Sequence record: SRR20825019_475
Reading direction: 5' to 3' (one strand)
Length of the DNA: 42,559 bases
Position numbers and translations under genes: made by a program. The notes under the pieces were generated by a model, which made no database searches, was not told the origin of the DNA, and saw only the letters and a program-made list of their open reading frames with translations. Every line of letters begins with the position of its first letter. The first letter of the stretch is position 1. Shown in pieces: positions 1 through 35,815 of the stretch.

Positions 1-622
1 CCACCGGCGTCAGCGCATTGCCGCGCGCCAACCCGAGCTCCTGCAGCAGCGCCACGGATTCGGTATCCATATAGCGCTCGATGCCGGAGATTCCCTGGTT
101 GTCCACGTTGGTGGCCCCCAGGATGTGCGAGGCCTCCCGTATCCCGGGGTAGAACCGTTTGGATTCGGTGATGAAGTCGATGCCCGGAATGCCCAGCCGC
201 ATGACCTGCTGCTCAATGGCCGGCGTCAACTCCCGCTTCACCCAGACGAAACCCTGCTCGCCGGTCAGCCGGTTGCGCAGCCAGGTCTCATCGAGATCGG
301 GCAGCACAGTGCGCAATTTCCCCACCGCCTCCTCCACGTCGATGATGCGGCGCGGCTCGGCGTAGAGCGAGGGCACACGAATATCGACCGCCATCTCCAG
401 GCCGTTGCGGTCGAGGATCGGCGGTCTGGTGGCGGTGATGGCGTCACGCGTCTGGCCCTCGATGGTCTGGTCGGTCTCGACCATGCCCAACTGCACCAGC
501 CGCCCGCCGACCATGACGAAGCCGAGCACGACGCCCAGGATCATCCAGCGGATGCGCGACCGCGTGAGGTCGCCGCGCTGCTTGCGGGCGCCGTCGAGTG
601 CGATGGTCTCGGCCATTGCCAT
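1..622 (-). CDS. ftsI: Class B penicillin-binding protein, FtsI/PBP3-like (5' part only; runs off the left edge; absent from the ORF track)
   Basis: Manual translation from ATG 622 (GGAG upstream): MAMAETIALDGARKQRGDLTRSRIRWMILGVVLGFVMVGGRLVQLG...RPPILDRNGLEMA...SLYAEP...GFVWVKREL...ESKRFYP...SHILG...DNQGISGIE. This is an N-terminal TM followed by PBP-dimer domain motifs (RxxIxDRNG, RxYP, GxxGxE). There is no ftsL or mraW upstream, so it is probably an accessory paralog. Confidence 0.85.
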   Translation of the reverse strand, partial: MAMAETIALDGARKQRGDLTRSRIRWMILGVVLGFVMVGGRLVQLGMVETDQTIEGQTRDAITATRPPILDRNGLEMAVDIRVPSLYAEPRRIIDVEEAVGKLRTVLPDLDETWLRNRLTGEQGFVWVKRELTPAIEQQVMRLGIPGIDFITESKRFYPGIREASHILGATNVDNQGISGIERYMDTESVALLQELGLARGNALTPV

Positions 623-18353: not shown

Positions 18354-18365
18354 ATGTGGATTGTC

Positions 18366-19709
18366 ATGAAGGGTCCTTTGTCACCTTACAGTTCGGGCTG
18401 GCGCAGCGGCGGCGGCGATCCGTCATTGGTGGACGTTCATCGCAGTGTGCCGGTGGCTGCAAAGGGATCGGTCTGGCGCCGGGCTACTGCTTTCTTCGGT
18501 CCCGGTTATCTCGTGGCAGTGGGGTATATGGACCCGGGCAATTGGGCGACATCGCTGGCCGGGGGGTCACGCTTCGGCTACACGTTACTTGTCGTGGCCT
18601 TGGTCTCCAACGTAATGGCCATCATCCTGCAATCGCTCTGTGCCCGCTTGGCTATCGGTTCGGGCCGTGACTTGGCTAGAGCCTGCCGTGACGCTTTTCC
18701 GCTCCCGGTGGGCTTCGTGCTCTGGATCATGGCGGAGATCGCTATTGTAGCCACAGACATCGCCGAGGTGATCGGTACGGCAATTGGGCTCAATCTTTTG
18801 TTCGGTATCCCGCTTGAGCTCGGCGTAGTTATTACTGCGCTCGATGTGTTCCTTATTCTCTATCTGCAAAGGTTGGGATTCCGCTGGGTCGAGGCACTGA
18901 TAATTGCTCTCCTCGCCGTCATTGCGGTCTGCTTCGTGATACAGATCGCTCTCGCCGACCCAAATTGGAGCGATGTCATTCGCGGTTTTGCGCCGACCAC
19001 AGAAATCCTAACAAATCCGGACATGCTCTATCTGGCCCTGGGCATTCTCGGGGCCACGGTGATGCCCCATAATCTGTATCTGCACTCGGCCATCGTGCAA
19101 ACCCGCGATTACGGAGATAGCCTCCCCGAGAAACGCGAAGCACTGAAATTCGCCACGATCGATTCCACTGTGGCGTTGATGTTTGCACTGCTGGTCAACG
19201 CGTCCATCCTCATCCTAGCAGCGGCCACCTTTCACACGACCGGGCGCACGGAAGTTGCCGAAATTGGAGAGGCGCATGCATTGCTCGCGCCCATGCTCGG
19301 CGCCGCGATTGCGCCTACGCTGTTCGCCGTGGCGCTCCTATGCTCAGGGATCAACTCCACGGTGACGGCGACGCTGGCTGGGCAGATCGTCATGGAAGGG
19401 TTCTTGCGGTTTCGAATGGCACCATGGCTAAGAAGGCTGGTCACTCGCATCTTGGCGATCGCTCCCGCCGCTTTGGTCACCATATGGTATGGCGAGAGCG
19501 GAACAGCCCAGTTGCTTATCCTCAGCCAAGTTGTGCTCAGCATGCAGCTTTCATTTGCGGTGATCCCGCTCGTCCTCTTCACTGCTGATCGACGGAAGAT
19601 GGGAAGCTTAGTTGCACCGTTTTGGCTGATAGTGGTTTCTGGCCTCATCGCCATCACTATTGCAGGTCTTAATTTGAAGCTTTTGTGGGATTTCAGCAGA
19701 GGAGGCTAA
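18366..19709 (+). CDS. mntH: Nramp-family divalent metal (Mn2+) transporter
   Basis: [36 protein letters not shown]. Start trimmed to ATG 18366. Confidence 0.95.
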
Positions 19710-19778
19710 CATGGAAAGAAAGTTCTTGAGTTGACCCGAAGTTTGGCCAGCCGTTTACGTCGCAGTGCCACCCCTTGA

Positions 19779-20024
19779 TCCGAGATCGTCTAGCGCCTCA
19801 CTGGGAGCAATGGCCATTTGAAGGGCGTTGTTGAGATTGAGGCAGGACGACCCTGTCTCGATGTTGCCCGGCAACTTTTTCCATTGGAGAAGGGCGTGGT
19901 GCAGGCAAAAAAGACACCGATCCACGACCGCCTGGATCACTGTCTTGAGGACCTGGACGGGCCATTGAGCCAGGAGCCTCAGCGCCCGATAGACGAGTCC
20001 AAGGAAATAGTGAAGTATCTTTGA
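19779..20024 (+). pseudogene. Decayed CsoR/RcnR-family (NreA-like) metal-sensing repressor
   Basis: SEIV*RLTGSNGHLKGVVEIEAGRPCLDVARQL...IHDRLDHCLE...EIVKYL. In-frame TAG at 19791 (and TGA at 19776), no start codon, and expected His positions altered. Confidence 0.75.
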
Positions 20025-20089
20025 TATTCACGGTTCCCGGCTGACCGTGGCTGGGGTCTAAAATACGTTCTGCTTACGGCTGTGACCTG

Positions 20090-20460
20090 ATTGCCGGTTG
20101 CGGCGAGAAGCTCGGCAAAAGCTGCGGCGGTTTGATAGCAAAGCGAGGAGTGCGGCCCGCGTCGCAACGAGATCCTCCACCCGTTCGGCCATGGCGCTGC
20201 AAGTATAGTCGAGGCCGAAAGGACAGGCTCTCACTCAAGAGCCCGTCCCGAATCCCCCCTAAAGCTCTCGACGTACCGTTCTGCATCGGCTTGCTCGGCG
20301 CGATGTAGCTTTATTCGACGCCATAGTCCTCCCATCGAGCCAGGTTTGCGTTCGAGCTCTTCTTCCCGGTAGAGCCGATGGATGCGGTTGATCCCTGACA
20401 TCTCGCCCTCACGCCGCAGCAGGATGAGCAGTCAACGATAGCCGAACCGGCAGCTGGCTC
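20090..20460 (-). mobile_element. IS3-family transposase (OrfB) relic with stops, frameshifts and an internal deletion
   Basis: Minus-strand fragments RFGYR*LLILLRREGEMSGINRIHRLYREE, DYGVE*SYIAPSKPMQNG/VESF, IRDGLLSESL and PHSSLCYQTAAAFA match the IS3 HTH_21 and rve_3 regions. Confidence 0.8.
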
Positions 20461-20464
20461 GGTT

Positions 20465-21568
20465 CTAAATCTCGAAGTTCCGCAACCTTTCCCCGGCAGA
20501 CAGAAAAGGTCGCGGATCAATGGCACCGTTCTGGTCACGCACCTCGAAGTGCAGATGTGGGCCTGTCGACCGCCCCGTGGAGCCCACCAAGGCAATCTGC
20601 ATGTGCGCCTCGACCTCGTCACCCTCTTCTACCGTAGCTTGAGACAGATGCGGATAACGGGATATCAGGCCGGAAGGGTGCATGATCTCGACGACCCTAC
20701 CGTAGTCTCCCTTCCAGCCGACAAACGTCACAATTCCCCGTCCCGCACTTCGCACCGGTGTACCGGTCGGCGCGGGAAAATCCATACCGGAATGAAAGGC
20801 GCTCCGGCCAGTAAAAGGGTCCTGCCGCGTACCGAAGCCCGAGCTGATCCGTGACGTTTCGAGAGGATGATGGATAGGCACGTCATCCATCGCACGAAGC
20901 GCGTCATGAAAGCGATCCAACGCCTCAATGGTCTGGCCGATATCGATAAAGCCAGCGTCGGCGCGTTCAACAGCAGGAAAAAAAGGCCCGCCTCGAGCGA
21001 GGTCGACTATCCCCGGCGCATATCCGACACCCCCAAGCTCGGCGATGATCGTGTGGGTCGAGCGATTCACGGCGTCGGACAGGAACGCTACTGCCGCGAT
21101 CAGCTCACGCTCCATAATCCGAAGTTCACTGTCTACTACATTAAGTTCGTCGACATTGTTAATTATTCTCTGTCGCCCAGCGGGCTGCGTGTCGAGCGAC
21201 ACAATGCCCAAATCTGCAATTGTTTCCGCGACCGCCATCACTGGACGAAGCTGCTCTCCGATCTGCTCCTGCAAATCTGAAATTTCTTGAATTCTAGTGG
21301 CGGAGCTGCCGGCAGTTAAGATTTCGCGGGACCGTAATCGCTCGACAGCGGAATTAAGTTGGCTGATCCGATGGCCATAGGCGGCCGATATCTCTGTTCG
21401 CGTATCCCACAATTCCACTATGCCTGTGCTACGAAGCAACATGGATACGGTCATGCTGTTCGTGACCAGCAGACTACCAAGCACCACCCAGTGAACAAGA
21501 CGAATCTGCATAACTGCTGGGTGTCCGATGGACCGATCTAAGCTACGACTTCGAGTATCGCTAGCCAT
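20465..21568 (-). CDS. Second M23 metallo-endopeptidase (TM, coiled coil, LytM domain)
   Basis: SSGFGTRQDPF, FHSGMDF, GSTGRSTGPHLHFEV. Visibly lower GC than its neighbours. Confidence 0.88.
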   Translation of the reverse strand: MASDTRSRSLDRSIGHPAVMQIRLVHWVVLGSLLVTNSMTVSMLLRSTGIVELWDTRTEISAAYGHRISQLNSAVERLRSREILTAGSSATRIQEISDLQEQIGEQLRPVMAVAETIADLGIVSLDTQPAGRQRIINNVDELNVVDSELRIMERELIAAVAFLSDAVNRSTHTIIAELGGVGYAPGIVDLARGGPFFPAVERADAGFIDIGQTIEALDRFHDALRAMDDVPIHHPLETSRISSGFGTRQDPFTGRSAFHSGMDFPAPTGTPVRSAGRGIVTFVGWKGDYGRVVEIMHPSGLISRYPHLSQATVEEGDEVEAHMQIALVGSTGRSTGPHLHFEVRDQNGAIDPRPFLSAGERLRNFEI

Positions 21569-21628
21569 GGTTAACAAACCAGAAATCGTGCCCGCACGGG
21601 CCGCTCACCGGGTGCTCAGGCCGGAGCG

Positions 21629-23794: not shown

Positions 23795-23809
23795 GCAGAG
23801 GTGCCAGGC

Positions 23810-25798
23810 ATGTTCGACCACGACGAAGACGATTTCCCTTTTCAGCACGGAGACGACGAGATGACGATCGGCAGGAAGGATGAGGGACTGACGGTCCGGC
23901 AGGCGCTGGCCGAACTGGCGGTGAAAGGTGCGATCTCGACGGATCTGCGCAAGTCCTTGATCAAGGGGGAACTGCGCTCGATCGTGCTGGTCGTGCCGTC
24001 CGCCGAGTGGACCAACATGGCCGGAGGAGCGGTGGAGGATATTCACGACCGCATCTACGCGTTCTGCAAGGCTTCGGGGAAGAAAGAAGCGGAGGACGCC
24101 AGTGCCATCAACAAGGCCCTTGCTGCCGGCAGGACGGTCGTGGCCGTGACGCCGTCCGTGCGGACGTTGCCGGCGATCTTCAAGACGGTCGCATCGGAGA
24201 CCATCGAGGTCCCGCCGCCAAGCGCAGCTCTGGTGGCCCAATTGGTCCGCAGGTTCTCGGTGGGTCGCTTGCCATCCTCCTTTTCGAGGCTCGACACCTC
24301 GGTCCTCGACTTCGACGAGCTGTGCGGGCTTGTGGAGAAGGGCGCCGACGCCGCGGTGACGGCGGAACGCATCGCCAATGCCATCTCGGCGAAAACGCGC
24401 ACGGCTCGTGTCGGCGAAACCCTGCCGGATCTGGAGGTGGCGGTCGAATTCGGCGATGCGCGGCTATGGGCGATCGATCTCAAGCAGGATCTGTCCGATA
24501 TCAAAGCCGGGATCATCGGCTGGTCGGAGGTGGACAAGGGCTGCGTCCTCCATGGACCGCCCGGGACGGGCAAGACCACATATGCCCGTGCGCTGGGCCA
24601 GTATCTCGGCATTCCCGTGGTTATCGGGAGCGTGTCGGAGCTGTTCGCGTCCAGCGCGGGATATCTGGATTCGGTGATCAAGGCCCAGCGAGCCCTTTTC
24701 GAGCGTGCGATGCAGCAGGCGCCGGCCGTCCTGTTCCTCGATGAGATCGACCAGATGCCGGATCTCGACCAGATCTCCCAGCGCGGCAAGGACTGGTGGA
24801 GCCCGGTGGTCGCCGACTTCCTTCAGTTGCTCGACAGTGCCGTGTCCGACAGGGATGGTCTGATCGTCATCGGCGCAACGAACCGCGTCGAGGCCCTGGC
24901 ACCGGCTTGCCTGCGTCCCGGGCGGCTGGAGCGCTCGATCTATCTGGGACCGCCCGACGAAACAGGAGCAGCGAGGGTCCTGCGTCATCACCTCGGGCCT
25001 TCTCTCGCCGATGCCGATCTCTCTCCCATGGCGAGCATCTGCTCGGCTCGCAGGATGACAGGGGCCGACATCATGGACCTCGTGAGATCGGCCAAGCGGC
25101 TGGCAAGGCGCGAGAAGCGCGAGATGTCGTTGTCCGATCTGACTGCGCGGCTCGTGCCGCCGTACGAATTGACCGAGGCCCAACGAAGTCGCGTGGCTCT
25201 GCACGAGGCAGGACATGCGGCCATCGCGGCCCTGCATTTTCCCGATCGGCTGGTGTCCGTCAGCATCGACCCCTTTGGCGGCGGCATCGCCTCGGGTGGT
25301 CACGTGCGAGTCGAAATCCCCGATGACCTTCTCGAGACGAAGTCCGACCTCGATCGGCGGGTGGAGATGCTGCTCGCGGGCCGAGCGGCCGAGATCGCCT
25401 TTCTAGGCGAGGCATCATCGGGATCGGGTGGTTCGGAGACCAGTGATCTCGGGCTCGCCATGCGAATGCTCGCGGCGGCGCATCTGTCGTTCGGCACTGC
25501 GGATGCCCCGCGTTGGCGATGCGAGCCCGAAAGGGCGATGGACATGCTGCGACTGGACCCTAGGACAATGTCCCAGGTCGAAACGGAGCTTGCGAAGCTG
25601 GCGGCGTCGGCCATCGACCTGGTGCGCTCCCGCCGAAGCGAGATCGAGACCTTGGCCGGCGAGCTCCTGTCCCGCTCTACGTTGTCGGCTGCGGAAGTGC
25701 TGACGATAGTGCGCAAGGGCGAATCGGCGTCCACGAACCTCGTATCGCGAAGGTTCGAATCGAACGAATCGACGCTGCCTTGGACCGAATCGGCGTGA
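23810..25798 (+). CDS. Soluble FtsH-like AAA+ ATPase / M41 zinc protease
   Basis: Walker A GPPGTGKT, Walker B LFLDE, SRH GATN...LRPGRLE, HEAGH, LAGRAAE, GGSETSD. No TM segment. Confidence 0.9.
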   Translation: MFDHDEDDFPFQHGDDEMTIGRKDEGLTVRQALAELAVKGAISTDLRKSLIKGELRSIVLVVPSAEWTNMAGGAVEDIHDRIYAFCKASGKKEAEDASAINKALAAGRTVVAVTPSVRTLPAIFKTVASETIEVPPPSAALVAQLVRRFSVGRLPSSFSRLDTSVLDFDELCGLVEKGADAAVTAERIANAISAKTRTARVGETLPDLEVAVEFGDARLWAIDLKQDLSDIKAGIIGWSEVDKGCVLHGPPGTGKTTYARALGQYLGIPVVIGSVSELFASSAGYLDSVIKAQRALFERAMQQAPAVLFLDEIDQMPDLDQISQRGKDWWSPVVADFLQLLDSAVSDRDGLIVIGATNRVEALAPACLRPGRLERSIYLGPPDETGAARVLRHHLGPSLADADLSPMASICSARRMTGADIMDLVRSAKRLARREKREMSLSDLTARLVPPYELTEAQRSRVALHEAGHAAIAALHFPDRLVSVSIDPFGGGIASGGHVRVEIPDDLLETKSDLDRRVEMLLAGRAAEIAFLGEASSGSGGSETSDLGLAMRMLAAAHLSFGTADAPRWRCEPERAMDMLRLDPRTMSQVETELAKLAASAIDLVRSRRSEIETLAGELLSRSTLSAAEVLTIVRKGESASTNLVSRRFESNESTLPWTESA

Positions 25799-26480: not shown

Positions 26481-27329
26481 ATGCCTAAGAGTATCAAGCC
26501 GCCGCGGCGCGGCGAACTGCTGTCTGATCAGCTTCTGCTCGAAGACCATCAGATCTTCGCCCGCATCTTCGTCGCCGAGGACGGCGGTCCTATCCGCACC
26601 CTGATCACCGGGCGCGAGCACCATGCCACGGGACGCTTCGTCTCGGTCAAGGCCGGGCACCGTGCGTTGCCTTGGGAATCGCTGCGCGGCGAACTGTCCG
26701 CGCTCGAACTGATGGAGGCGGCGCCTCCGGTCCATAGGATGATGGCGCAGCCGCACCGCCTTGAAATGATCATCGAGGGTGTTCCCGCGCCATTGGTGTT
26801 CTTCCCCGATCTGCGCCTGACCGTTGACGCACGCTTTGCGTCCGCACTGGCCGGTGGCGTACCGTTTCTGCTCGCCTGCGCCGAATGGCGTCCCGACGCG
26901 TCCACGGCGGGCGACACCCGCGAGTTGATCGTGGAGGTGAAGACCGCGAACGACCCGCGCAACGCCGATCCGGTCTACCAGTCAAAGCTCGCCTTGGCCG
27001 AGGAGGTCTACGGCAGGATTGGTTGGCAGTTCTTCCAATTCGTCGATCCCACCGGGCCCGGCTACTCCCGCATCGCCCATGCGGTGCGCGAGATCGTGCT
27101 CGACCACGACGTCATCGTCTCGCCCCATGAGGTGCATCTCGCCCAGAAGGCGCTGAGCGACGGCCCGACGACGCTGGATGCGGTCTTGGATGCTCTCGGC
27201 GGCAACGTGGCGGCCATCCAGAAGGCCTGCGCGCTTCATGTCCGCCGCCTGCTCTGCATCGACATCGCCGGACGGCTGGCGCCGGAGTCCATGGTGTTCC
27301 CTATGGGTTCGATCGGAGGCGCGGCATGA
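26481..27329 (+). CDS. tnsA: TnsA-like endonuclease of a Tn7-like transposon
   Basis: AGGAG RBS. TGRFVSVK, WESLRGE, AQP, FFPD, IVEVK (PD-(D/E)xK), and a C-terminal winged-helix-like region. Confidence 0.88.
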   Translation: MPKSIKPPRRGELLSDQLLLEDHQIFARIFVAEDGGPIRTLITGREHHATGRFVSVKAGHRALPWESLRGELSALELMEAAPPVHRMMAQPHRLEMIIEGVPAPLVFFPDLRLTVDARFASALAGGVPFLLACAEWRPDASTAGDTRELIVEVKTANDPRNADPVYQSKLALAEEVYGRIGWQFFQFVDPTGPGYSRIAHAVREIVLDHDVIVSPHEVHLAQKALSDGPTTLDAVLDALGGNVAAIQKACALHVRRLLCIDIAGRLAPESMVFPMGSIGGAA

Positions 27330-27544
27330 GTCAGGTCTTCCAATCCCCCCGCGCCTTTCCGGTGCACTTCGTGCTGGTCGACGATGATGGGTTGCCTTGG
27401 CTGGGCACGCTGGTGGCCGTGACGGTGGAAGGTTACGCGTTCCATATCGACGAGATCGATTCCGAGATCGTGTTGTCCGAGGAAACCCTCGAGGACATGT
27501 TCGACCGGGATGCCGCCGTCGAGATCCAGGGGGCGCCGTCATGA
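27326..27544 (+). CDS. 72-aa acidic protein resembling the N-terminal domain of the adjacent TnsB
   Basis: GGAGG RBS, ATGA overlaps with both tnsA and tnsB, and by-eye alignment to TnsB residues about 15-68. Confidence 0.8.
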   Translation: MSQVFQSPRAFPVHFVLVDDDGLPWLGTLVAVTVEGYAFHIDEIDSEIVLSEETLEDMFDRDAAVEIQGAPS

Positions 27545-29859
27545 GGCCGTCCTGGATCACCATCGACGTCGAGGCCGGCGAGACCTATTGGCTCACGCTG
27601 CCCGACCGCACGTTCCTCGCCACGTTCGAGAAGGTCACGCTCCAGCACCAACTGCGCTTTTCGGACGAGCAGCTGGACATGCCCGTCGATATCGCTCCGC
27701 ACCTCTTCGAGAAGATGCGGAGCGACGGGCGCGCCGTTCGCATTCCCAAGGGCAGCATCCCGAGCCGGAAAAAATCCGCCTTCGAGCTCGGCGACGTCCA
27801 TCCCTCGACCCTTCTCGATCCCGAGGAACGCGGCATCGGCGACAAGGAGCGCAAAGAACGGCTGGCCCAGTGGCAGAAGTTCGAGCGCGCGCGGACGCTG
27901 GCGTGGTGCGCATCGGAATACGACGCCACTCCTCACCTGGGCCGCGGGCACAACTGCATCGACGACCACTTCAAATCCAAGGACGTCAAGAAACGCGCCT
28001 GGGAGTTAGGCTTCGTGTGGCGTCCCGACGCGGCCACGATCCTCCGCGCCATCGATGCCTGCGGCGTGCCTGGGTCGCGCCCCGTCTCGGCGTTCTTCGA
28101 CAAGCGGGGCAAGCACGACCGGAGCAAGCGCTATCCGGAAGTTTTGCTGACGTGGGCCAAGGAAAGCATCGACGCTTACTGGGCATCGATCACCGAGCGC
28201 TACTGCGACGTGCGCGAGAGCTTCTACAAGAAGATCGACGAGGAGAACGAGGAGCGCGTCAAGCAGGGCCTCGAGAAATTGCCCCGAATTTCGCCCGAGA
28301 CCTTCCGCAAGTGGGTTGACGAAGAGGAGTCATGGTGGACCTGGTCGACCCGCTACGGCGAGAAGGCGGCCAACGCCCGCTACAAGGGTCGGGGCGTCCC
28401 GATGGAGGCGTCCCGCCCCCTCGAACTGGTGCTCATTGACCATACCCGTCTCGACGTGTGGGCCGTGGTCGAGGACCAATATGGTCGCCTCGTCATGACC
28501 GAACGTCCATGGCTCACCCTGGCCATTGATGTCTATAGCCGAATGATTCTCGGCGCGGTCCTGAGCTTCGAGCCGCCGAGCGTCTACAGCGCCATGCTCT
28601 GCCTGCGGCAGATCGTTCGAGCCAAGGACTTCCTCATCGAGAAGTACGGCCACCATAAGGGGGCGACGGACGGCTGGGGCAAGCCTACGACCATCGTCAT
28701 GGACAATGCCTGGGAGTTCTCCGGCATCTCCATGCAGTCGGTATGCGAGGCGGCGGGCATCCACGTCGTCTGGGCGCCGGTCGGCACGCCGACGTTCAAG
28801 GCGATCGTCGAGCGCTTCTTCCGCACCCTCAACGAAATGGTGTGGCACCGCCTCGGCAGCGGCATCCCGTTCAAGCCGCAGGTCATGCAGGAACTGGGCC
28901 TCGATCCCAGGGCGAAGGCGCTGTTCCGGATCGACTACCTCACCGCCAGGATGTGGGACGGCATCGTCAACATCTATCACGTCGAGCCTCATTCCGACCT
29001 AAACATGGCGCCCGCTGAACGCTGGTCAATGGGCGTCCAGGCCAAGACCCGTCCTACGATGGACGATGTGGGTGCCTTGGACAAGATGCTCGGCAATGTC
29101 TCGCGTTGCGTCCTGAGCGCCGAGGGCGTCTCCGTGAATGGCCAGCGCTTCCACGAGCCGGCGACCACGACGGCCTTGCTGGAGAACCTGCTGAAGTACG
29201 GCGCCAAGCGTTCGCGCCGCAAGGGCTTCGGCTCCAGCGGCACGGTGGCTGTGATCGCCAACTGGGATCGCGTGGATGCCAGCCATGTCCATGTCTGGGA
29301 TTTCTCCAACAATACGTCGGTGCGCCTGCCCAACGTCGACAAGCACGTGCACGGGGTCCCCGGTGTCGACGGAGCACCGGCCCAGGGATTGAGCTGGGCT
29401 GTGGTGGACGCGATCAAGGCGTTCGCCGCCGAACGCAACATGGCTTTCCACAGCCCCCAGGAAAAGGCTGCGGCCCGGCACGCCTATTACCACGAAATGC
29501 CGGAGAAGGTTGCGGCCATGCCGTTCAACGCCGCCCGGCACTACGCCGCCGAGATCGATCGTAGCCCCAGTCTGGTCGATGGCGACACCGTGATCCAGCA
29601 TGCCGTGCCGGCGACGCCGAAGGGTGCCGCCGCCGAGACACCGCGTGAATTCTCGGCGGCACACCGAACCGGCGAATGGGCACCGCCCAAGGCGCCGTCG
29701 CGGGGGCGGAAGAGCCGGTCTTCGGGATCGAAGGGCCGATCCGCTCCGCCGTCCGCGTCGCCGCCGAAGCCGCCCGAAACGCATCCCGCCCCTGCCGACC
29801 TATCCAACCACATCCTGAATTCCGCTGCTGCTCTAGATGCGCTCGCGGACGACCTTTGA
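27541..29859 (+). CDS. tnsB: TnsB-like DDE transposase
   Basis: Start trimmed to ATG 27541. LIDHT, RPWLTLAIDVYSR, VMDNA, KAIVERFFRTL, YHVEPHS; Pro/Ser-rich C-terminal tail. Confidence 0.92.
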   Translation: MRPSWITIDVEAGETYWLTLPDRTFLATFEKVTLQHQLRFSDEQLDMPVDIAPHLFEKMRSDGRAVRIPKGSIPSRKKSAFELGDVHPSTLLDPEERGIGDKERKERLAQWQKFERARTLAWCASEYDATPHLGRGHNCIDDHFKSKDVKKRAWELGFVWRPDAATILRAIDACGVPGSRPVSAFFDKRGKHDRSKRYPEVLLTWAKESIDAYWASITERYCDVRESFYKKIDEENEERVKQGLEKLPRISPETFRKWVDEEESWWTWSTRYGEKAANARYKGRGVPMEASRPLELVLIDHTRLDVWAVVEDQYGRLVMTERPWLTLAIDVYSRMILGAVLSFEPPSVYSAMLCLRQIVRAKDFLIEKYGHHKGATDGWGKPTTIVMDNAWEFSGISMQSVCEAAGIHVVWAPVGTPTFKAIVERFFRTLNEMVWHRLGSGIPFKPQVMQELGLDPRAKALFRIDYLTARMWDGIVNIYHVEPHSDLNMAPAERWSMGVQAKTRPTMDDVGALDKMLGNVSRCVLSAEGVSVNGQRFHEPATTTALLENLLKYGAKRSRRKGFGSSGTVAVIANWDRVDASHVHVWDFSNNTSVRLPNVDKHVHGVPGVDGAPAQGLSWAVVDAIKAFAAERNMAFHSPQEKAAARHAYYHEMPEKVAAMPFNAARHYAAEIDRSPSLVDGDTVIQHAVPATPKGAAAETPREFSAAHRTGEWAPPKAPSRGRKSRSSGSKGRSAPPSASPPKPPETHPAPADLSNHILNSAAALDALADDL

Positions 29860-29866
29860 GGTAACC

Positions 29867-30865
29867 ATGACCAAGACGCTTACCAACTCCGAGATCCTCG
29901 CCGTGTTCCGCAAGCTCAGGGTCAAGCACCCCCGTCTCGACATCGTCACGGAGGTTTGCGACGACCTTCGCGCCACGATCACCGACGATGAACCCAAGCA
30001 GTTCGGCACCCTGTTCGCACCCAGCCACGTCGGTAAGTCCACCGCGGTCAAGAACTACCAGGAAAAAGTCGCAGTGCCGGAAGCGATTTCCCGAGGGCTG
30101 GTTCCAGCCGATCTGCCCCTCGATGAACAGGTCCGCCTCCAAAAGCTCGTCGTGCATGTCACGCTGGAAGGCGGCGCGACGCCTCGTTCCCTGTGCGCCG
30201 ACATCCTGGCTGCCCTCGGCGATCCCCGCTCCGCCCGGGGATCGAAAAACCTGATGCTCCGCCGTGTGTATGACCTCCTGTCCACTCTCGGCGTGGAACT
30301 GCTTGTTATCGACGAGATCCAGCACTTGGCGGTCTCCAAGCACCGCATGTCTGAGGATGCGGACCTGCGCTCGATCGAGCGCTCCAGGACCAGCGAAGTG
30401 ACTGACACGTTGAAGGCCATGCTCATCCGCGGAGTGGTGCCTATGCTGTTCGTCGGCATCGAGGAGGCACGGCCCTACCTTCTCGACGACATCCAGCTTG
30501 CGCTGCGCTGCCATGAGGAGATCGACTTCGGTGAATTGTCCTGGGAGGATACGCAGGAGCGTCAGGTCTTCCAGGATTTCGTCGGACGCCTCGGCATTCA
30601 TCTGGCCAAGGAGGGGTTGTTCCCGCAAAGGGCAGATTTCCTGAACGCGGATATCCCGGCGGCCTTGCACGAGGCTTCGCTCGGTCGTCTGGGCATCGCC
30701 TGCCGCATCGTCGCCAAGGCCTGCATGCATGCTGCCAAGGCCAAGGCGGATACTGTGACGCGCGAGCACCTGTCCAAGGCGGTCGATACCTTCGCGATCC
30801 CGCGCGGCATCGTGAAGACCAACCCCTTCAAGCGCGGCGGCGACGCCCGACTGGTGGCCGCATGA
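29867..30865 (+). CDS. tnsC: TnsC/TniB AAA+ ATPase
   Basis: GAGG RBS. Walker A APSHVGKS, Walker B LLVIDEIQH, QLALR, C-terminal NPF. Confidence 0.9.
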   Translation: MTKTLTNSEILAVFRKLRVKHPRLDIVTEVCDDLRATITDDEPKQFGTLFAPSHVGKSTAVKNYQEKVAVPEAISRGLVPADLPLDEQVRLQKLVVHVTLEGGATPRSLCADILAALGDPRSARGSKNLMLRRVYDLLSTLGVELLVIDEIQHLAVSKHRMSEDADLRSIERSRTSEVTDTLKAMLIRGVVPMLFVGIEEARPYLLDDIQLALRCHEEIDFGELSWEDTQERQVFQDFVGRLGIHLAKEGLFPQRADFLNADIPAALHEASLGRLGIACRIVAKACMHAAKAKADTVTREHLSKAVDTFAIPRGIVKTNPFKRGGDARLVAA

Positions 30866-32796
30866 CGCTTCCTGTCTCCGTCCTGCCCCATGGCGACGAG
30901 CATCTCCCGGGCCTGGTCGTCCGCGCGGGCAATCTCATGGGCTACGATCTCACCAGCGATGTCCTCATCCCTCTGGGATACAAGTCCCGCGCTGAATCCA
31001 TCGCGTCCGCGCCCGGTTTGAAGTTTCCCCTTGCGGATCATCTGGGATGCCGCGTCGAGGATATTTCGCCGCTCTTCCTCGATCAGGCCGGGCGTTCCGG
31101 CTGGTTGCGGTTCTTCGGTGCCGAGATTCGCGCGATCCACCGCGAGGTGACCGTGCGCCGCATCGCGCCCGGGACGCTCGCGACATGCGGATACCACAAG
31201 GCGGCCTGGCAGATCCGTGCCTTCGGCTTCGATCCGGCAACGGGCGAGCGCCTGATCTCGGAGTGTCCGGTCTGCGGGACGACGTTGGGCTGGGTGCGGG
31301 TCCGCGATCTGGCGTTCTGCGACCGCTGCGATCGGGTGGACGACCATGGGTTCGTTCGCTCCAAGGTCGATCTGCGGGATTGGCCACAGGAGAAGGTGGA
31401 GGTGGAGGACATGGAGGCCTTGCGCTTCGTGACCTCGCTCGTCGATCCCGATCCTGCCGTCAGGGCAGCTTACGCGCCGGCGCTGCACCCCGATATCGAA
31501 ACGGATCGCGGATCCCTGTTCGAGTTCGCGATCTCGATCGCGAGCGCCATGACGCAGGACCCGAAACGCTCGGTCACGTCGGTGGCCAAGCCCGGGAGCC
31601 GCGAGATGTTCGATCGCATCGAACCCGATGTCCTCGCCAAGGCGGGCCGCGTGGTCCTGTCTTGGCCCGATGGGTTTCACGACCTCTGCTCGCAAGCCCG
31701 TGATTCCGCGAGCGAACGCAGCGGCCATTACGGCGTGAAGAAGGAGATCGGATCGCTCTATGCCCTGACCACGGACCGCGCGCTCCCTCCCGAACTGCGT
31801 GCCGCTGTGCGGAAGTCCGTCGAGGACGACATGGCCATGACCGCGGTCAGTCTGCCCACCGTGCGCAAGGGCAGCTATCGCAATCGCTCCGATCTCCTGA
31901 CGGCCTACGAGGCCGCCAAGGAATTCGGCATCCGCCCGAAGCTGTTCAAGATTCTGGCCGGGCATCCGGAGGTGCGCGTCATCCGCAATGCGGGATCGAA
32001 GAACTCCCCTATGCTGTTCGAACGCGCACAGATCGCGATGATCGCCGCACAACGCGCGGACATGGAGGCCGCCAGTTCGGCTGCCGTCCGCCTCGGCCTA
32101 CCGACCGGGGCGATGGCCGAGCTGGCGGAGGCCGGACTAGTGGATACTGTTGGAGGTCCGGTCCTGATGCTCGCGGTGGGCAAGGAATACTACACGCGTT
32201 CTAGCGTCAACCGGCTGGTGGACCGCCTGGAATCGAAAGTGTTGCCCGCGGTACCGCCATCCACCTATATCCGCTTGACCAAGGCGGTCTACAGGTTGCC
32301 GCCCGGGCCGAAACCATGGGCGGGCATCATCGCCAGGGTGATCGACGGGACCATCCCAGTGCACCGTATCGACGGCAGGCTGACCGGCACCATGACATCG
32401 TTGGCGGCGCCGGATTTCGAAACCGTCGTAGCAGCAGTCGGGCGGCATGCCGGTTCTGATGAAGCCCGTGACGGTCTGCTCACCCACATAGAGGCGTCGG
32501 TCCTACTTGGCGTCACCGAGCCAATGGTTGGTCGCTTGGTCCTTCGACGGCTGCTTCCCGTCAAGGCCAAAGGCCAGGTTTCGATTGCCCGGGCCGACGT
32601 GTTCGCCGTGGCGCGAAAGTGGATGTTCACGAATGAAGCCTCGCGGCGCCTCGGCGTTCCGAACCGCCTGGTGCGCACCACCCTCGCCAAGTTCGGAGTC
32701 CACCCGAAGCACGAACTTCGTGAGCGGCAGCAGCTCGTCTTCGCGCGTGAAGAAGTCGAGCGCGTGCTCGAGACCGTGGTGAGCACCGCCGCCTAG
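30862..32796 (+). CDS. tniQ: TniQ/TnsD-like target selector with tandem C-terminal HTH modules
   Basis: N-terminal LPVSVLPHGDEHLPGLVVR, AWQ...LISECPVC...FCDRC. Repeated EAxxxLG-type HTH motifs in the C-terminal half. ATGA-coupled to tnsC. Confidence 0.85.
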   Translation: MTLPVSVLPHGDEHLPGLVVRAGNLMGYDLTSDVLIPLGYKSRAESIASAPGLKFPLADHLGCRVEDISPLFLDQAGRSGWLRFFGAEIRAIHREVTVRRIAPGTLATCGYHKAAWQIRAFGFDPATGERLISECPVCGTTLGWVRVRDLAFCDRCDRVDDHGFVRSKVDLRDWPQEKVEVEDMEALRFVTSLVDPDPAVRAAYAPALHPDIETDRGSLFEFAISIASAMTQDPKRSVTSVAKPGSREMFDRIEPDVLAKAGRVVLSWPDGFHDLCSQARDSASERSGHYGVKKEIGSLYALTTDRALPPELRAAVRKSVEDDMAMTAVSLPTVRKGSYRNRSDLLTAYEAAKEFGIRPKLFKILAGHPEVRVIRNAGSKNSPMLFERAQIAMIAAQRADMEAASSAAVRLGLPTGAMAELAEAGLVDTVGGPVLMLAVGKEYYTRSSVNRLVDRLESKVLPAVPPSTYIRLTKAVYRLPPGPKPWAGIIARVIDGTIPVHRIDGRLTGTMTSLAAPDFETVVAAVGRHAGSDEARDGLLTHIEASVLLGVTEPMVGRLVLRRLLPVKAKGQVSIARADVFAVARKWMFTNEASRRLGVPNRLVRTTLAKFGVHPKHELRERQQLVFAREEVERVLETVVSTAA

Positions 32797-32902: not shown

Positions 32903-33062
32903 ATCGACTCGTATTTGCCTGTCGAAACGTCGATTATCGACTCATGATTGCTGGTCGCGTACTTGGGATCGACTCAGAATTCCCTGTGGCGTTGACTCAG
33001 AATTTTCCTGCCGTCATTGAATCCAAAGGGTTTTTTCGACTCAGGATTTATAGGTCCTGACA
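32903..33062 (-). repeat. Transposon end: five putative TnsB-binding repeats plus a TGT terminus
   Basis: GACTC cores at 32906, 32939, 32971, 32994 and 33038 (consensus tcGACTCAgrATT). Read inward, the terminus is TGTCAGGA-CCTATAAATCCTGAGTCGA, starting at 33062. Confidence 0.75.
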
Positions 33063-33330
33063 TATCTCAATTGCCTTGCGTGAAGAGCCGTTCTGGCTCA
33101 CATCGCGCTCAGTTAAGTTTGATGAAACATCCCAAAATGACAGTTCTTCAGCAATTCGTTGACATTGTTCCTTCGCCTGATGGAACTCACGTCAGATTTT
33201 AATTGATTGCCGAAGTCGTTTCCGAGAATCAATATTTGGCTGTTCTCTGTAGAGGGAGTTCTCGCGATCAGGGCGGTTCTTGCTATGACAGACGATATGA
33301 GAATGTGTATCCAATGGGGCTTTGGGCGTC

Positions 33331-33969
33331 ATGATCATTAGAAAAATTGGCAGTAGTTGGCGCCATTACCTTGGCGCTGTCTTGGCGACGGTATGGTTTT
33401 CGAGCCAGGCCTATGCTCTGGAATTCTCCAGCCACCCCAATGCGGCGAGTATGCCCGCTGTCACCGCAATTCTCGCGGAAGGCGATATCAGGGAAGGTGA
33501 CGTCGAACGACTGTCTGAGTACTTATCGACTGCCGTCATACGGGAAACCATCGCGATCTATCTCGCCAGCCCTGGTGGTTCTCTCTACGAAGGCATGCGG
33601 CTAGGTCGGTTCTTCAAAGAACACAATATCAAGACAGTCGTAGAGGGCGACAGAGTTTGCGCAAGCGCTTGCGCCTTGGCCTTTCTCGGTGGACGAGATA
33701 ATGCGGGTAAGCCTTGGCGTTCAAGTTCATCGAACAGCATGCTTGGCTTTCACGCTTTCTATTCTGATATCGCCCCTCAGGACGAGAATGAAACACAACT
33801 GGTTGTGTCGCATGTGCTTGAGTATGGACATGAGGTGGACGCCCCGCTGGAGATATTGATCCTGAATTTCGCAACGCCGTCGGACTCGATGTACTGGCTG
33901 AGTGCGCAAGAGATTTGCTCTTTGGGCATTAAGCTCTGGGATGTGCCTGGAAATCAATTCACTTGTTGA
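33331..33969 (+). CDS. Exported ClpP/crotonase-fold protein (COG3904-like)
   Basis: Signal peptide ending AYA, LASPGGS, CASACALAFLGG, LGFH. Low GC. Confidence 0.75.
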   Translation: MIIRKIGSSWRHYLGAVLATVWFSSQAYALEFSSHPNAASMPAVTAILAEGDIREGDVERLSEYLSTAVIRETIAIYLASPGGSLYEGMRLGRFFKEHNIKTVVEGDRVCASACALAFLGGRDNAGKPWRSSSSNSMLGFHAFYSDIAPQDENETQLVVSHVLEYGHEVDAPLEILILNFATPSDSMYWLSAQEICSLGIKLWDVPGNQFTC

Positions 33970-34154: not shown

Positions 34155-34622
34155 TTGAGCGCGACGACGCAGTTTATCGAGGAAATGGGGCTGATAGCCC
34201 AGGAGCGGGGGGAATCGCGGATTTCCGGTCGCCTGATCGGCCTGATGGTGGTCGAGGGGCAGGAGCTCAACCTCGTGCAGATCAGCGAGAAGCTGGCGAT
34301 CAGCCGAGCCAGCGCGAGTACCAATGCACGCGACCTGGCGCGCAAGGGCATTCTCAAGTTGCGCACCCATGCCGGGGACCGGCAGGATTATTACCAGCTG
34401 GTCAGCCTCAGTGAAATCGATGTGGTGGGCGACCTTGCCGCGCAATTTGAGCGACAAGCGCAAACAATAAAAAACTGTGTCGAGGCTATGCAGGTCGAGA
34501 ACGCCGAGGCGGCCCGGCGCGCGGCGGTGGTCCAGAACTTTCTGGAAAAGTCTGCCGATATCCTGACCCATTGGGTGACGACGCTCCGCGCTGCGGACGA
34601 GCATGAGAAGGACGAAAAATGA
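34155..34622 (+). CDS. GbsR/MarR-family transcriptional regulator
   Basis: GAGGTG RBS then TTG. FIEEMG...SRISGRLIGL...ISRASASTN...GDRQDYY. Confidence 0.88.
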   Translation: MSATTQFIEEMGLIAQERGESRISGRLIGLMVVEGQELNLVQISEKLAISRASASTNARDLARKGILKLRTHAGDRQDYYQLVSLSEIDVVGDLAAQFERQAQTIKNCVEAMQVENAEAARRAAVVQNFLEKSADILTHWVTTLRAADEHEKDEK

Positions 34623-35815
34623 CCGACGCGCAGACCAAGCCCGAATGGGCACAGAGCCGCCGCGAAAAGGAAAATGCCGCGCGCGTGGCGCAGGGTCTCA
34701 AGCCCAAGCGCCGGATCATGCCCTGGATTGTCCTGGCGGTGATCATTGCCGGGGTGGTGGGTTTCGTGGTGCTGCGGCCGGCCGAGGCTCCGGTGGGCGA
34801 GGTGGCGGAGACCGGACCGGTGGTGATGCAGGTCCGGCGGTCCGAGACCACGTCCATTGCGCCCGATACGCTGCGCGAAACGGTCAAGGTGACTGGTACG
34901 CTGGTGCCGGCGCGTCAGTCCGACGTGGCCTCGCAGGCATCGGGCCGGGTTATGGCCGTCATGGTGCGGCCGGGTGATACGGTCCGCGAGGGCGATGTGC
35001 TGGCGCAGATCGATCGGGCACCGCTCGAATTGCAGCTCAATCAGCAGCGCGCCACGGCCAATGCGACCCGGGCGCAGCTCAATTCATCCGAGCAGAGCCT
35101 GACGCGCACCGAAGAGCTGGCCCGACAGGGGCTGGCCAGTCCCTCGACGCTGGACCAGGCGCGCTCGTCGACCGAGGCGCTGCGCGCCAATCTGGCGGCG
35201 CTGGAAAGCGCAGTGGAGTCGGCGGAACTGGCGCTGAACAATGCAACGGTCAAATCGCCGCTTGATGGCGTGGTCTCGTCGCGCTCGGTGGATAGTGGGC
35301 AGACGGTTTCGGCCGGCACGCCCCTGTTCACCGTCGTCAATCTTGACGAAATGGAGTTCGATGCGACGGCGTCGGTCACGTCGAGCGCCCGTGTCGCGCC
35401 CGGCCAGCAGGTGACCGTCGACGTCACCGGGCTCGATGGCCAGAGCTTTAATGGCACCGTCACGCGGGTCAATCCGGTCTCGCTGAGCGGTACGCGCACC
35501 GTGCCGATCTATATCGAGCTCAGCAATGAAGGCGGGGAATTGCGCGGCGGCATGTTTGCCACCGGGCACATCACGGTTGAGCAGGCTGAGGACGCTATCG
35601 CGGTGCCCGCCGCAGCTTTGCGTGAGGATGCCGAGGGCCAATTCGTGCTCAAGCTGGTGGATGGCACGCTTGAGCGCCAGGGCATCGAAATGGTGCGCGA
35701 ATGGGAGCGTGGCCGGCTGATCGAAGTGACGGGTCTCAACGCCGGAGATGTGATCGTTTCGGCGCCCTTGTCCGAGCTTGAGGCCGGCAACGCCTACACA
35801 CTCGTGGAGGGATAA
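34619..35815 (+). CDS. RND efflux periplasmic adaptor (MFP)
   Basis: TM, lipoyl half-motifs SGRV...PGDTV..G.VL and SPLDGVV...GQTV..GTPLF, alpha-hairpin, LRGGMF. Confidence 0.93.
   Translation: MTDAQTKPEWAQSRREKENAARVAQGLKPKRRIMPWIVLAVIIAGVVGFVVLRPAEAPVGEVAETGPVVMQVRRSETTSIAPDTLRETVKVTGTLVPARQSDVASQASGRVMAVMVRPGDTVREGDVLAQIDRAPLELQLNQQRATANATRAQLNSSEQSLTRTEELARQGLASPSTLDQARSSTEALRANLAALESAVESAELALNNATVKSPLDGVVSSRSVDSGQTVSAGTPLFTVVNLDEMEFDATASVTSSARVAPGQQVTVDVTGLDGQSFNGTVTRVNPVSLSGTRTVPIYIELSNEGGELRGGMFATGHITVEQAEDAIAVPAAALREDAEGQFVLKLVDGTLERQGIEMVREWERGRLIEVTGLNAGDVIVSAPLSELEAGNAYTLVEG

What the first reader, a model, noticed from the sequence alone, without database searches (positions are those of the whole stretch)
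27326..27544. Stand-alone copy of the TnsB N-terminal domain encoded between tnsA and tnsB
Seen: the 72-aa ORF has its own GGAGG and ATGA overlaps on both sides. It aligns by eye to the start of the adjacent TnsB: FVLVDDDGLPWLGTLVAVTVEG-YAFHIDEIDSEIVLSEETLEDMFDRDAAVEI versus YWLTLPD-RTFLATFEKVTLQHQLRFSDEQLDMPVDIAPHLFEKMRSDGRAVRI. That is about 13 identities with a matching hydrophobic pattern, and the small copy is much more acidic. Inference: an old, retained domain duplication acting as an extra transposase subunit, a TnsA-TnsB adaptor or a decoy inhibitor. I know of no such subunit in characterised Tn7 systems.
Basis: partly seen in the sequence, partly recalled or inferred. Interest (0 to 1): 0.8.

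Follow-up and report, generated by a model that had tools for sequence, protein, structure and literature searches.

The report
Stand-alone copy of transposase SH3-like domain
A small, very acidic gene wedged between the two transposase genes of a Tn7-like jumping element in Devosia bacteria is a free-standing, diverged copy of the first domain of the transposase itself, an extra part not described for this transposon family, whose role is still only inferred.

Summary
The 72-codon ORF at 27326-27544 is real. It has a GGAGG and ATGA overlaps on both sides. It is a gene under purifying selection: six protein variants of 72-73 aa down to 54% identity, dN/dS 0.31, an in-frame indel, and GC3 like its neighbours.

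Pairwise similarity to TnsB is not significant. Profile against profile is clear: hhalign E 4.2e-6 over 59 co-linear columns, score 31.8 against a maximum of 18.6 in 120 column shuffles. AlphaFold models of ORF72 and of TnsB residues 1-80 have the same strand/helix order. Both match the N-terminal SH3-like subdomain of E. coli Tn7 TnsB (7pik), but only at middling Z (5.2-7.4).

The ORF is narrowly distributed. It occurs in 3 of 109 Devosia genomes, the same three whose TnsB is at least 79% identical. It was found in 0 of 18 more distant sister loci.

Function is inferred only. I think it is most likely a trans-acting modulator of transposase assembly. The one complex prediction gave no answer.

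The parts
26481..27329 (+). tnsA-like gene (282 aa from the ATG at 26481; the mechanical ORF starts at GTG 26271). Its stop overlaps the ORF72 start.
   Evidence: The window's own protein has no Pfam hit at E<=0.1 and only a sub-threshold NCBIfam TnsA_like hit (E 2.4e-4, 20.7 bits against a cut-off of 110). 8 of 12 aligned family members hit PF08722 Tn7_TnsA-like_N, best E 2.5e-7. P109, D110 and K154 are invariant and E152 nearly invariant in the 12-sequence alignment. Reading these as a PD-(D/E)xK motif is my inference.
27315..27319 (+). GGAGG ribosome-binding site, 6 nt upstream of the ORF72 ATG
   Evidence: A GGAGG is also present at the equivalent place in L104.
27326..27544 (+). ORF72: stand-alone, acidic (pI 4.05) SH3-like small beta-barrel protein, paralogue of the TnsB N-terminal subdomain
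27541..29859 (+). tnsB-like DDE transposase gene (772 aa)
   Evidence: rve domain, E 1.9e-7, 31.7 bits against a cut-off of 32.6. Family profile against PDB: Tn6677 TnsB E 2.3e-53, PseCAST TnsAB 1.4e-48, ShCAST TnsB 4.6e-21, E. coli Tn7 TnsB 1.1e-14.
27541..27750 (+). coding region of the TnsB N-terminal SH3-like subdomain (residues about 1-70), the presumed source of ORF72
29837..30865 (+). tnsC/tniB-like AAA+ gene
   Evidence: PF13401 AAA_22 E 9.8e-19 and PF05621 TniB E 8.5e-14
30862..32796 (+). large target-selector-like gene in the tniQ/tnsD position (644 aa). The name rests on position only.
   Evidence: Only C-terminal HTH_17 (E 1.3e-5, below cut-off) and MerR_1 hits; no TniQ family hit
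32903..33062 (+). probable transposon end: directly repeated TCGACTCAGAATT-like sites (32903, 32937, 32969, 32992, 33036) and a terminal ...CCTGACA ending at 33062
   Evidence: In one search, 5 matches in the window at up to 2 mismatches (4 of them here) against 0.76 expected. Near-identity to G001 stops at window 33062 and to G004 at 33075. That these are TnsB-binding sites is inference.

Best explanation
ORF72 is a real, translationally coupled gene. It encodes a free-standing, strongly acidic copy of the SH3-like N-terminal subdomain of the adjacent TnsB transposase. It arose by duplication of that domain in one Devosia sub-lineage of a divergent alphaproteobacterial Tn7-like family (tnsA, tnsB, tnsC/tniB, tniQ-like). 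It has since evolved about twice as fast as the TnsB domain while staying under purifying selection.

Inferred mechanism: in E. coli Tn7 TnsB, the SH3-like subdomain packs against the catalytic domain of a neighbouring TnsB protomer on the transposon end and touches DNA phosphates. ORF72 keeps the hydrophobic core of the fold. It has replaced the conserved arginines of the TnsB domain with non-basic residues and carries a conserved acidic surface. So it most likely acts on protein rather than DNA, as a trans-acting mimic that occupies or competes for an SH3-docking surface in the transposase complex and so tunes (caps, limits or completes) transpososome assembly.

My estimates: real gene 0.9; homology to the TnsB domain 0.8; the protein-level modulator role 0.4.
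For: Gene: six variants of 72-73 aa, 54-99% identical, with 24 invariant columns. dN/dS against the L104 copy is 0.31, compared with 0.13 for tnsB and 0.15 for tnsA. There is a 3-nt in-frame indel between the window and L023/L001/L002. GC by codon position is 0.67/0.34/0.81, like its neighbours. GGAGG and ATGA overlaps are conserved in L104.

Homology: hhalign of A3 (6 ORF72 sequences) against A4 (17 TnsB N-termini) gives Prob 86.9, E 4.2e-6, 59 columns, residues 10-69 against 11-70. 120 column shuffles give mean 10.3, sd 2.0, max 18.6, against the real 31.8; the reversed profile gives 11.4. A TnsB-N-terminus HMM places ORF72 at rank 40 of 5001 (itself plus 5000 shuffles), in register. The ORF72 HMM's best hit outside its own clade (L037, E 0.14) falls inside that locus's TnsB reading frame.

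Charge: ORF72 has 15 D/E and 2 K/R; the four other variants computed have pI 4.06-4.26. D19, D21, E35, E47, E52, E56 and D60 are invariant. The nearly invariant TnsB R60 and R67 align with ORF72 F59 and E66.
Against: Pairwise similarity is at chance level. DNA similarity between ORF72 and the tnsB 5' end is not significant: score -28 against a codon-shuffle mean of -40, sd 6.7, max -20. The ORF72 profile is shallow (Neff 1.7) and hhalign probability is 87%, not above 95%.

The ORF72 HMM scores its own TnsB N-terminus at only -0.7 bits. Its best single hit is a 39%-identity relative, P0053 (7.8 bits, E 0.018). So descent from its own neighbour, rather than from another element's TnsB, is not shown.

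The gene is missing from all 18 more distant family loci, so the family transposes without it. No partner or activity has been shown. Residue-level mapping onto the Tn7 K34, G35 and L43 positions was not done.
Confidence: 0.55

Rival explanations
1. ORF72 is the same duplicated SH3-like domain, but its partner is not TnsB. It bridges or regulates TnsA or TnsC, for example by occupying the place next to TnsC where the TnsB SH3-like domain sits in the assembled transpososome.
For: The gene lies between tnsA and tnsB with 4-nt overlaps on both sides. [quoted passage not shown] The acidic surface would suit a basic DNA-binding face of TnsC or TnsA.
Against: No test was made with TnsA or TnsC. In the passages read, TnsA contacts the RNase H-like part of TnsB, not the SH3-like subdomain. 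tnsA-like proteins have the same length with and without ORF72.
Confidence: 0.2
2. ORF72 is a small beta-barrel protein unrelated by descent to TnsB (convergent fold, or captured from elsewhere). The profile match reflects a generic beta-beta-beta-beta-alpha-beta pattern.
Against: The hhalign match covers the whole domain co-linearly at E 4.2e-6, including the helix motif E-x-M and A-V-x-I. The only invariant TnsB N-terminal column (F40) aligns with an invariant ORF72 residue, F39. No Pfam or NCBIfam family and no other protein family was found for ORF72. Among 1.84 billion representatives, one hit is an ORF72 homologue (P0125); of the other three, two are InlB B-repeat proteins and one a Reg_prop/FlgD_ig protein, and I set all three aside as spurious. 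The gene sits directly in front of the one gene that carries the matching domain.
Confidence: 0.12
3. ORF72 is a duplication remnant with no role of its own. It is carried along because it maintains translational coupling between tnsA and tnsB.
For: It has a narrow distribution (3 of 109 Devosia genomes). Selection is more relaxed than on its neighbours (0.31 against 0.13-0.15). The family works without it.
Against: dN/dS is well below 1 at dS 0.92. Length is kept at 72-73 aa in six variants down to 54% identity. Seven of the 24 invariant residues are acidic, including ones that differ from the TnsB domain. A mere spacer would not keep its amino-acid sequence.
Confidence: 0.08
4. ORF72 is a chance open frame in GC-rich DNA and is not translated.
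For: Many spurious ORFs exist in this 64% GC window. No Pfam or NCBIfam hit.
Against: Codon-position GC matches real genes, and there is an in-frame indel. dN/dS is 0.31. Orthologues are conserved. The Shine-Dalgarno and overlaps are conserved. The fold is predicted with confidence, pLDDT 77.
Confidence: 0.03

Closest known systems
SH3-like subdomain of DNA-binding domain 1 of E. coli Tn7 TnsB (PDB 7pik; Kaczmarska et al. 2022, PMC9308760, passages read)
   Same: Small beta-barrel with a C-terminal helix. ORF72 and the Devosia TnsB N-terminus both align to 7pik N-terminal residues: 3-62, rmsd 2.1-2.2, and 1-68, rmsd 2.7 (one search's row gives range 1..138). The domain is present in some TnsB lineages (Tn7, I-B1 and I-B2 CAST) and absent in others.
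   Different: ORF72 is not part of TnsB. It is a separate 72-aa polypeptide with its own start and stop, lacks the HTH that follows the subdomain in TnsB, and is strongly acidic. No sequence-level match to 7pik was obtained: the PDB profile search with the N-terminal alignment gave only E 0.36 to an Spt5 KOW chain.
Phage Mu repressor Rep versus MuA transposase N-terminal domain
   Same: A separately encoded small protein shares the N-terminal domain of the element's own DDE transposase (a relative of TnsB) and regulates transposition. The text of PMC3820752 says that MuA and Rep both bind the Mu ends. Its reference list cites Harshey 1985 and Mizuuchi 1986 on the repressor-transposase N-terminal homology (passages and reference titles only).
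   Different: Per PMC9308760, the MuA N-terminal domain is a winged HTH involved in DNA binding, so competition for DNA sites is a natural model there. ORF72 copies only the SH3-like subdomain, has no HTH and is acidic, so competition for DNA sites is unlikely. Mu Rep is not encoded inside the transposase operon (recalled).
   Same: A short protein that shares part of the transposase acts in trans, as a competitor or as a poison of multimer assembly.
   Different: Those proteins are made from the transposase gene itself (frameshifting, alternative starts, deletions). ORF72 is an old, separately evolving paralogous gene with about 22% identity to the domain it came from.
Tn7-like / Tn5053-like heteromeric transposition modules (tnsA, tnsB, tnsC/tniB, tniQ/tnsD)
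   Same: Gene order, DDE transposase related to solved TnsB proteins, AAA+ TniB-like regulator, TnsA-like endonuclease family, and an element end with repeated sites and a terminal ...ACA.
   Different: There is an extra gene between tnsA and tnsB. The whole family is divergent: the window's TnsA misses Pfam, and no TniQ family hit was obtained. The tns operon reads toward the identified end rather than away from it, unlike Tn7 as I recall it.

Membership tests
TnsB N-terminal SH3-like subdomain (as in Tn7 TnsB DBD1) | Sequence homology to the N-terminal domain of TnsB proteins | tested here: met
   Profile-profile E 4.2e-6, Prob 86.9, 59 co-linear columns. Real score 31.8 against a maximum of 18.6 in 120 column shuffles. 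The pairwise comparison alone fails.
TnsB N-terminal SH3-like subdomain (as in Tn7 TnsB DBD1) | SH3-like small beta-barrel fold superposable on 7pik residues about 1-65 | tested here: met
TnsB N-terminal SH3-like subdomain (as in Tn7 TnsB DBD1) | Covalently joined to the HTH of DBD1 at the N-terminus of TnsB | tested here: not met
   ORF72 has its own start and stop, and TnsB keeps its own copy. It is therefore a paralogue of the subdomain, not a TnsB.
TnsB N-terminal SH3-like subdomain (as in Tn7 TnsB DBD1) | Contacts the catalytic domain of a neighbouring TnsB protomer and DNA phosphates | not testable with these tools
   No usable interface model was obtained, and residue equivalents of Tn7 K34, G35 and L43 were not mapped. 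The conserved TnsB R60 and R67 are F59 and E66 in ORF72.
Tn7-like heteromeric transposase module | DDE TnsB related to solved TnsB proteins | tested here: met
   E 2.3e-53 to Tn6677 TnsB and 1.1e-14 to E. coli Tn7 TnsB. The rve hit is just under the Pfam cut-off.
Tn7-like heteromeric transposase module | TnsA-type PD-(D/E)xK endonuclease next to tnsB | tested here: inconclusive
   8 of 12 family members hit PF08722, but the window's own protein does not at E<=0.1. Its NCBIfam TnsA_like hit scores 20.7 bits against a cut-off of 110. P109, D110 and K154 are invariant and E152 nearly invariant.
Tn7-like heteromeric transposase module | AAA+ TnsC/TniB and a TniQ/TnsD target selector | tested here: inconclusive
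   TniB and AAA_22 are met. The 644-aa protein in the tniQ position gave only HTH hits and no TniQ family hit.
Stand-alone transposase-domain regulators (Mu Rep type) | Shares the transposase's sequence-specific DNA-binding domain and competes for its sites | tested here: not met
   ORF72 covers only the SH3-like subdomain, has no HTH, and has a net charge of about -13. It resembles this class in logic, not in mechanism.

The most novel reading that the evidence does not exclude
ORF72 is a natural sixth transposition protein of a Tn7-like element. It is a trans-acting regulator built from the transposase's own SH3-like subdomain. It binds the SH3-docking surface on TnsB (or the adjacent TnsC face) and so sets how far TnsB arrays or the transpososome can assemble. 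That would be a self-encoded brake or licensing factor of a kind not described for Tn7 or CAST systems.
Probability: 0.3. Interest if true: 0.7.

Novelty: new variant of a known kind. Interest (0 to 1): 0.55.

Why it matters
Tn7-like elements and their CRISPR-associated relatives are under intensive structural study and are being engineered as insertion tools. The SH3-like subdomain of TnsB is one of their least understood parts: it is present in Tn7 and type I-B systems and absent in type I-F.

A lineage that has split off a second, free copy of this subdomain and kept it under selection is a natural experiment on what the subdomain does in trans. If it modulates TnsB assembly, it would be a small, portable handle on transposase activity. 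If it has no effect, it is a tidy example of a domain duplicate born by a short duplication at a translationally coupled gene junction.

Caveat: it is rare, found in 3 of 109 Devosia species genomes plus three further metagenomic protein variants and one 96%-identical metagenome contig. Nothing about its activity has been shown.

Tried and rejected
1. Complex prediction of TnsB 1-700 with ORF72: verdict 'no answer', score 0.00 in both runs, alignments not used, controls not run. It counts neither for nor against binding. TnsA and TnsC were not tried because the cap is one job.

The window's own assembly is not held, so G001 and other handles were used.

3. Pairwise BLASTP and Smith-Waterman of ORF72 against TnsB were not significant. 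The DNA-level alignment of ORF72 against the tnsB 5' end was not significant.

4. The word-based protein search with ORF72 alone found only its own 97% cluster. The full HMMER scan found one true homologue plus three long proteins that I set aside as spurious: two InlB B-repeat proteins and one Reg_prop/FlgD_ig protein.

5. The JGI metagenome scan gave one true copy (96%) and two false positives that lie antisense to a longer ORF.

6. The ESM Atlas look-alike search gave nothing above 0.82, no lead.

8. PDB profile search with the TnsA alignment gave only spurious kringle matches. With the TnsB N-terminal alignment it gave nothing below E 0.36.

9. RNA evidence: one 151-nt contig from an aquatic metatranscriptome library covers 27258-27405, across the tnsA/ORF72 junction, at depth 2. 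The tool warns that DNA can be present in such libraries. Parts without cover mean nothing. This is not used as evidence of expression.

10. The second transposon end was not found in the window. There is no inverted copy of the TCGACTCAGAATT motif, and matches to the terminal 13-mer are at chance level.

11. The unrelated 102-aa ORF between tnsA and tnsB in L024 shows no similarity to ORF72 or to the TnsB N-terminus (hhalign P 0.59 and 0.43).

So the contexts of the metagenomic variants P0125, P0136 and P0137, and of the TnsB relatives P0008-P0010 (60-72% identity), could not be read. P0125 and the TnsB relative P0006 (87%) are linked only by the same longest-contig length, 16,840. P0136 and the TnsB relative P0134 (a member of the 79% cluster) are linked only by the same longest-contig length, 21,745.

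13. Supplementary files of the papers were not available. Domain boundaries and alignments of TnsB SH3-like subdomains in the supplement of PMC9308760 (Data S2) could bear on the residue mapping.

Full report
OBSERVATION. The 72-codon ORF at 27326-27544 (+) exists as described. GGAGG lies at 27315-27319, 6 nt before the ATG. The upstream gene's TGA (27327-27329) overlaps that ATG. The ORF's own TGA (27542-27544) overlaps the ATG of the next gene at 27541. As a pairwise match it is at chance level. BLASTP gives E = 18. 9% of 2000 shuffles reach the score against TnsB 1-90, and 42% of 500 reach it against the whole protein. The acidity claim holds: 15 D/E and 2 K/R, pI 4.05, against 11 D/E and 9 K/R, pI 5.54, for TnsB 1-72.

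CONTEXT. The ORF lies in an operon with four other genes.
- A TnsA-like gene, 26481-27329.
- A 772-aa DDE transposase, 27541-29859. Its rve hit scores 31.7 bits against a cut-off of 32.6. The family profile hits solved TnsB proteins: Tn6677 2.3e-53, PseCAST TnsAB 1.4e-48, ShCAST 4.6e-21, E. coli Tn7 1.1e-14.
- A TniB/AAA_22 ATPase, 29837-30865.
- A 644-aa protein in the tniQ position, which gave only HTH hits.

The window's TnsA-like protein misses Pfam, but 8 of 12 aligned family members hit PF08722. P109, D110 and K154 are invariant and E152 nearly invariant. The window is 99% identical over tnsB to a Devosia sediminis contig.

Near-identity to two Devosia genomes covers window 6467-18139 and 21613-33062/33075. 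It stops just after a cluster of direct TCGACTCAGAATT-like repeats (32903-33048) and a terminal ...CCTGACA at 33062. I take this to be one transposon end. The other end was not found in the window.

IS IT A GENE? Yes.
- Protein searches found five further variants: P0004, P0125, P0136, P0135 and P0137. All are 72-73 aa and 54-99% identical, with 24 invariant columns.
- One variant is readable in its genomic place (G522, L104/L129), where TnsB is 79% identical. It sits between tnsA and tnsB with the same GGAGG and ATGA geometry.
- Against that copy, dN/dS is 0.31 at dS 0.92. The values for tnsB, tnsA and the TnsB N-terminal 72 codons are 0.13, 0.15 and 0.14.
- The window and the L023/L001/L002 copies differ by a 3-nt in-frame indel. 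GC by codon position (0.67/0.34/0.81) matches the neighbouring genes.
- The protein evolves faster than its neighbours: 62% identity in the codon alignment, against 79% for TnsB in the same pair.

IS IT A COPY OF THE TnsB N-TERMINUS? Single-sequence tests are only suggestive.
- A profile HMM of 30 TnsB N-termini ranks ORF72 40th of 5001 (itself plus 5000 shuffles), in register.
- hhalign of ORF72 alone gives P 0.0075.

With profiles on both sides the match is clear.
- The comparison of 6 ORF72 sequences with 17 TnsB N-termini taken from loci gives Prob 86.9 and E 4.2e-6. It covers 59 co-linear columns, residues 10-69 against 11-70.
- 120 column shuffles of the ORF72 alignment give mean 10.3, sd 2.0 and max 18.6, against the real 31.8. 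The reversed profile gives 11.4.

AlphaFold2 models agree. ORF72 (pLDDT 77.4) has E14-18 E24-32 E37-41 E46-50 H52-60 E64-67. TnsB 1-80 (pLDDT 79.2) has E15-19 E24-32 E38-42 E48-51 H53-62 E65-68.

Foldseek gives both models only weak Tudor/PWWP/KOW hits. With VIA-align, both match the N-terminal residues of E. coli Tn7 TnsB (7pik).

WHAT IS THAT DOMAIN? Passages of Kaczmarska et al. 2022 (PMC9308760) describe Tn7 TnsB DBD1 as an SH3-like subdomain plus an HTH. The SH3-like part contacts the catalytic domain of the TnsB protomer in the neighbouring module (L43/L525 interface, tested by mutation). It also touches DNA phosphates (K34, G35). It is present in type I-B1 and I-B2 CAST TnsB and absent in the other TnsB proteins that paper compared. 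PMC13598128 (one passage) confirms its absence in PseTnsB. [quoted passage not shown] The Devosia family's N-terminal domain has no sequence match in the PDB, and the family-to-PDB alignments start only at profile position 178. So its equivalence to the Tn7 subdomain rests on the predicted fold and on its position.

DISTRIBUTION AND ORIGIN.
- The ORF72 profile finds a match in 3 of 109 Devosia species genomes. These are the same three whose TnsB is at least 79% identical to the window's.
- Among 20 family loci scanned in six frames, it matches 2 (L023, L104) at E < 1e-40. It matches 0 of the other 18 at E < 0.1. Those 18 include 16 loci with full-length TnsB at 29-46% identity and two more distant ones (L035, L037). 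The best of them (L037, E 0.14) falls inside that locus's own TnsB frame.
- In most of those loci the tnsA stop overlaps or abuts the tnsB start. The exceptions are a gap of about 75 nt in L026/L107, a tnsA frame in two pieces in L038, and an unrelated 102-aa ORF in L024.

So the gene was gained within this family, or lost everywhere else, which is less parsimonious. A duplication of the first 215 nt or so of tnsB at an ATGA junction would recreate an ATGA at both ends of the new ORF, as observed. That is my inference. DNA similarity is gone. The ORF72 HMM is not closer to its own neighbour (-0.7 bits) than to other clades (best P0053, 7.8 bits). So capture from a related element cannot be excluded.

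HOW IT MOST LIKELY WORKS (inference). ORF72 keeps the core positions of the fold. F39 aligns with F40, the only invariant column of the TnsB N-termini. M58, A64, V65 and I67 align with M59, A65, V66 and I68. It has replaced the nearly invariant TnsB R60 and R67 with F59 and E66. It also carries seven invariant acidic residues, and all variants computed have pI 4.05-4.26.

A domain that has lost basic residues and turned acidic is a poor DNA binder. It is a plausible binder of a basic protein surface. The one documented protein partner of this subdomain is the catalytic domain of a neighbouring TnsB. So my leading model (about 0.4) is a trans-acting mimic that occupies or competes for that docking surface and tunes TnsB array or transpososome assembly. 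It could cap it, limit it, or fill the vacant site of a terminal protomer. A TnsC- or TnsA-directed adaptor is the main rival (about 0.2). What is shown: the gene, the selection, the homology at profile level, and the shared predicted fold. What is inferred: the origin by local duplication, the partner and the effect.

COMPARISON AND NOVELTY. The logic has precedent: a small protein shares the transposase's own N-terminal domain and acts in trans. Mu Rep and MuA are one case (passages and reference titles only). IS1 InsA, IS911 OrfA, Tn5 Inh and P-element KP are others that I recall but did not look up. The part copied here differs. It is not the sequence-specific DNA-binding module, and it is an old separate gene rather than a by-product of the transposase gene.

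Four full-text searches returned no paper describing a gene between tnsA and tnsB or a free SH3-like Tns protein:
- TnsB / N-terminal domain / TnsA / transpososome;
- Tn7-like / SH3-like / TnsB;
- 'between tnsA and tnsB';
- Tn7-like / Devosia.

I judged this from listings and abstracts, and from passages of the four papers opened. Subscription journals and supplements were not searchable. I rate the finding a new variant of a known kind, interest 0.55. It is well supported as an entity, rare, and functionally untested.

LIMITS. The ORF72 alignment is shallow (6 sequences, Neff 1.7). The models could not be superposed on each other. The genomic contexts of three metagenomic variants could not be read. 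The single complex job gave no answer. The RNA-library contig over the tnsA/ORF72 junction does not show expression.

Noticed in passing
window 23801-25798 (+); also L025 68-1804, L026 3846-5624, L030 3799-5706, L031 3828-5705, L124 13915-15684: A 665-aa FtsH-like protein (AAA E 3.4e-27 plus Peptidase_M41 E 8.4e-14) lies upstream of tnsA on the same strand. Homologues at 32-39% identity lie upstream of tnsA in 5 of 18 sister loci searched. Several of the others have too little upstream flank. It looks like a conserved accessory or cargo gene of this transposon family, or a preferred neighbour.
   Followed up: partly
window 32903-33062: A cluster of direct TCGACTCAGAATT-like repeats and a terminal ...CCTGACA lie exactly where near-identity to the Devosia genome G001 stops (G004 stops at 33075). 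This is probably one transposon end with TnsB-binding sites. The tns operon reads toward this end. The second end is not in the window.
   Followed up: partly
window 18139-21613: The DNA shared with G001 and G004 (about 97-98% identical) is interrupted here by about 3.5 kb that differs. The corresponding gap in G004 and G001 is about 1.8 kb. This is a cargo replacement or indel inside the large shared region. The GC fraction is lower here, 0.56-0.59.
   Followed up: no
L024 6615-6923 (Bradyrhizobium niftali contig): A different 102-aa ORF sits between tnsA and tnsB of a 43%-identity sister element and also ends in an ATGA overlap with tnsB. It shows no similarity to ORF72 or to the TnsB N-terminus (hhalign P 0.59 and 0.43). 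Its GC3 is 0.68, against 0.71 and 0.75 for its neighbours. Whether it is a gene is open. If it is, the tnsA/tnsB junction may be a recurrent site for small accessory genes.
   Followed up: partly
TnsB residues about 36-38 (window 27646-27654) and relatives: Most family TnsB N-termini have a conserved Gly in the turn before the invariant Phe (consensus G-x-L-x-F). The window's TnsB and its three relatives at 72-87% identity (P0002, P0006-P0008) have Q-H-Q or Q-H-T there. Only P0007's element was shown to carry ORF72, and the context of P0008 is unknown. ORF72 itself keeps an invariant E-G-Y at the aligned place. This is a single position and may mean nothing.
   Followed up: no
L038 6112-6935 (Aliirhizobium terrae chromosome): The tnsA-like frame of this sister element is in two overlapping pieces (166 and 130 aa). 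It is probably frameshifted.
   Followed up: no
window 33322-33969 and 34155-38947: Just outside the presumed element end lies a low-GC (0.50) 215-aa ORF. It is followed by a 155-aa ORF, a 398-aa ORF and a 1042-aa ORF with many hydrophobic stretches. From the translations alone I guess a small regulator and two efflux-pump components. No family search was run, and the names are my guess.
   Followed up: no
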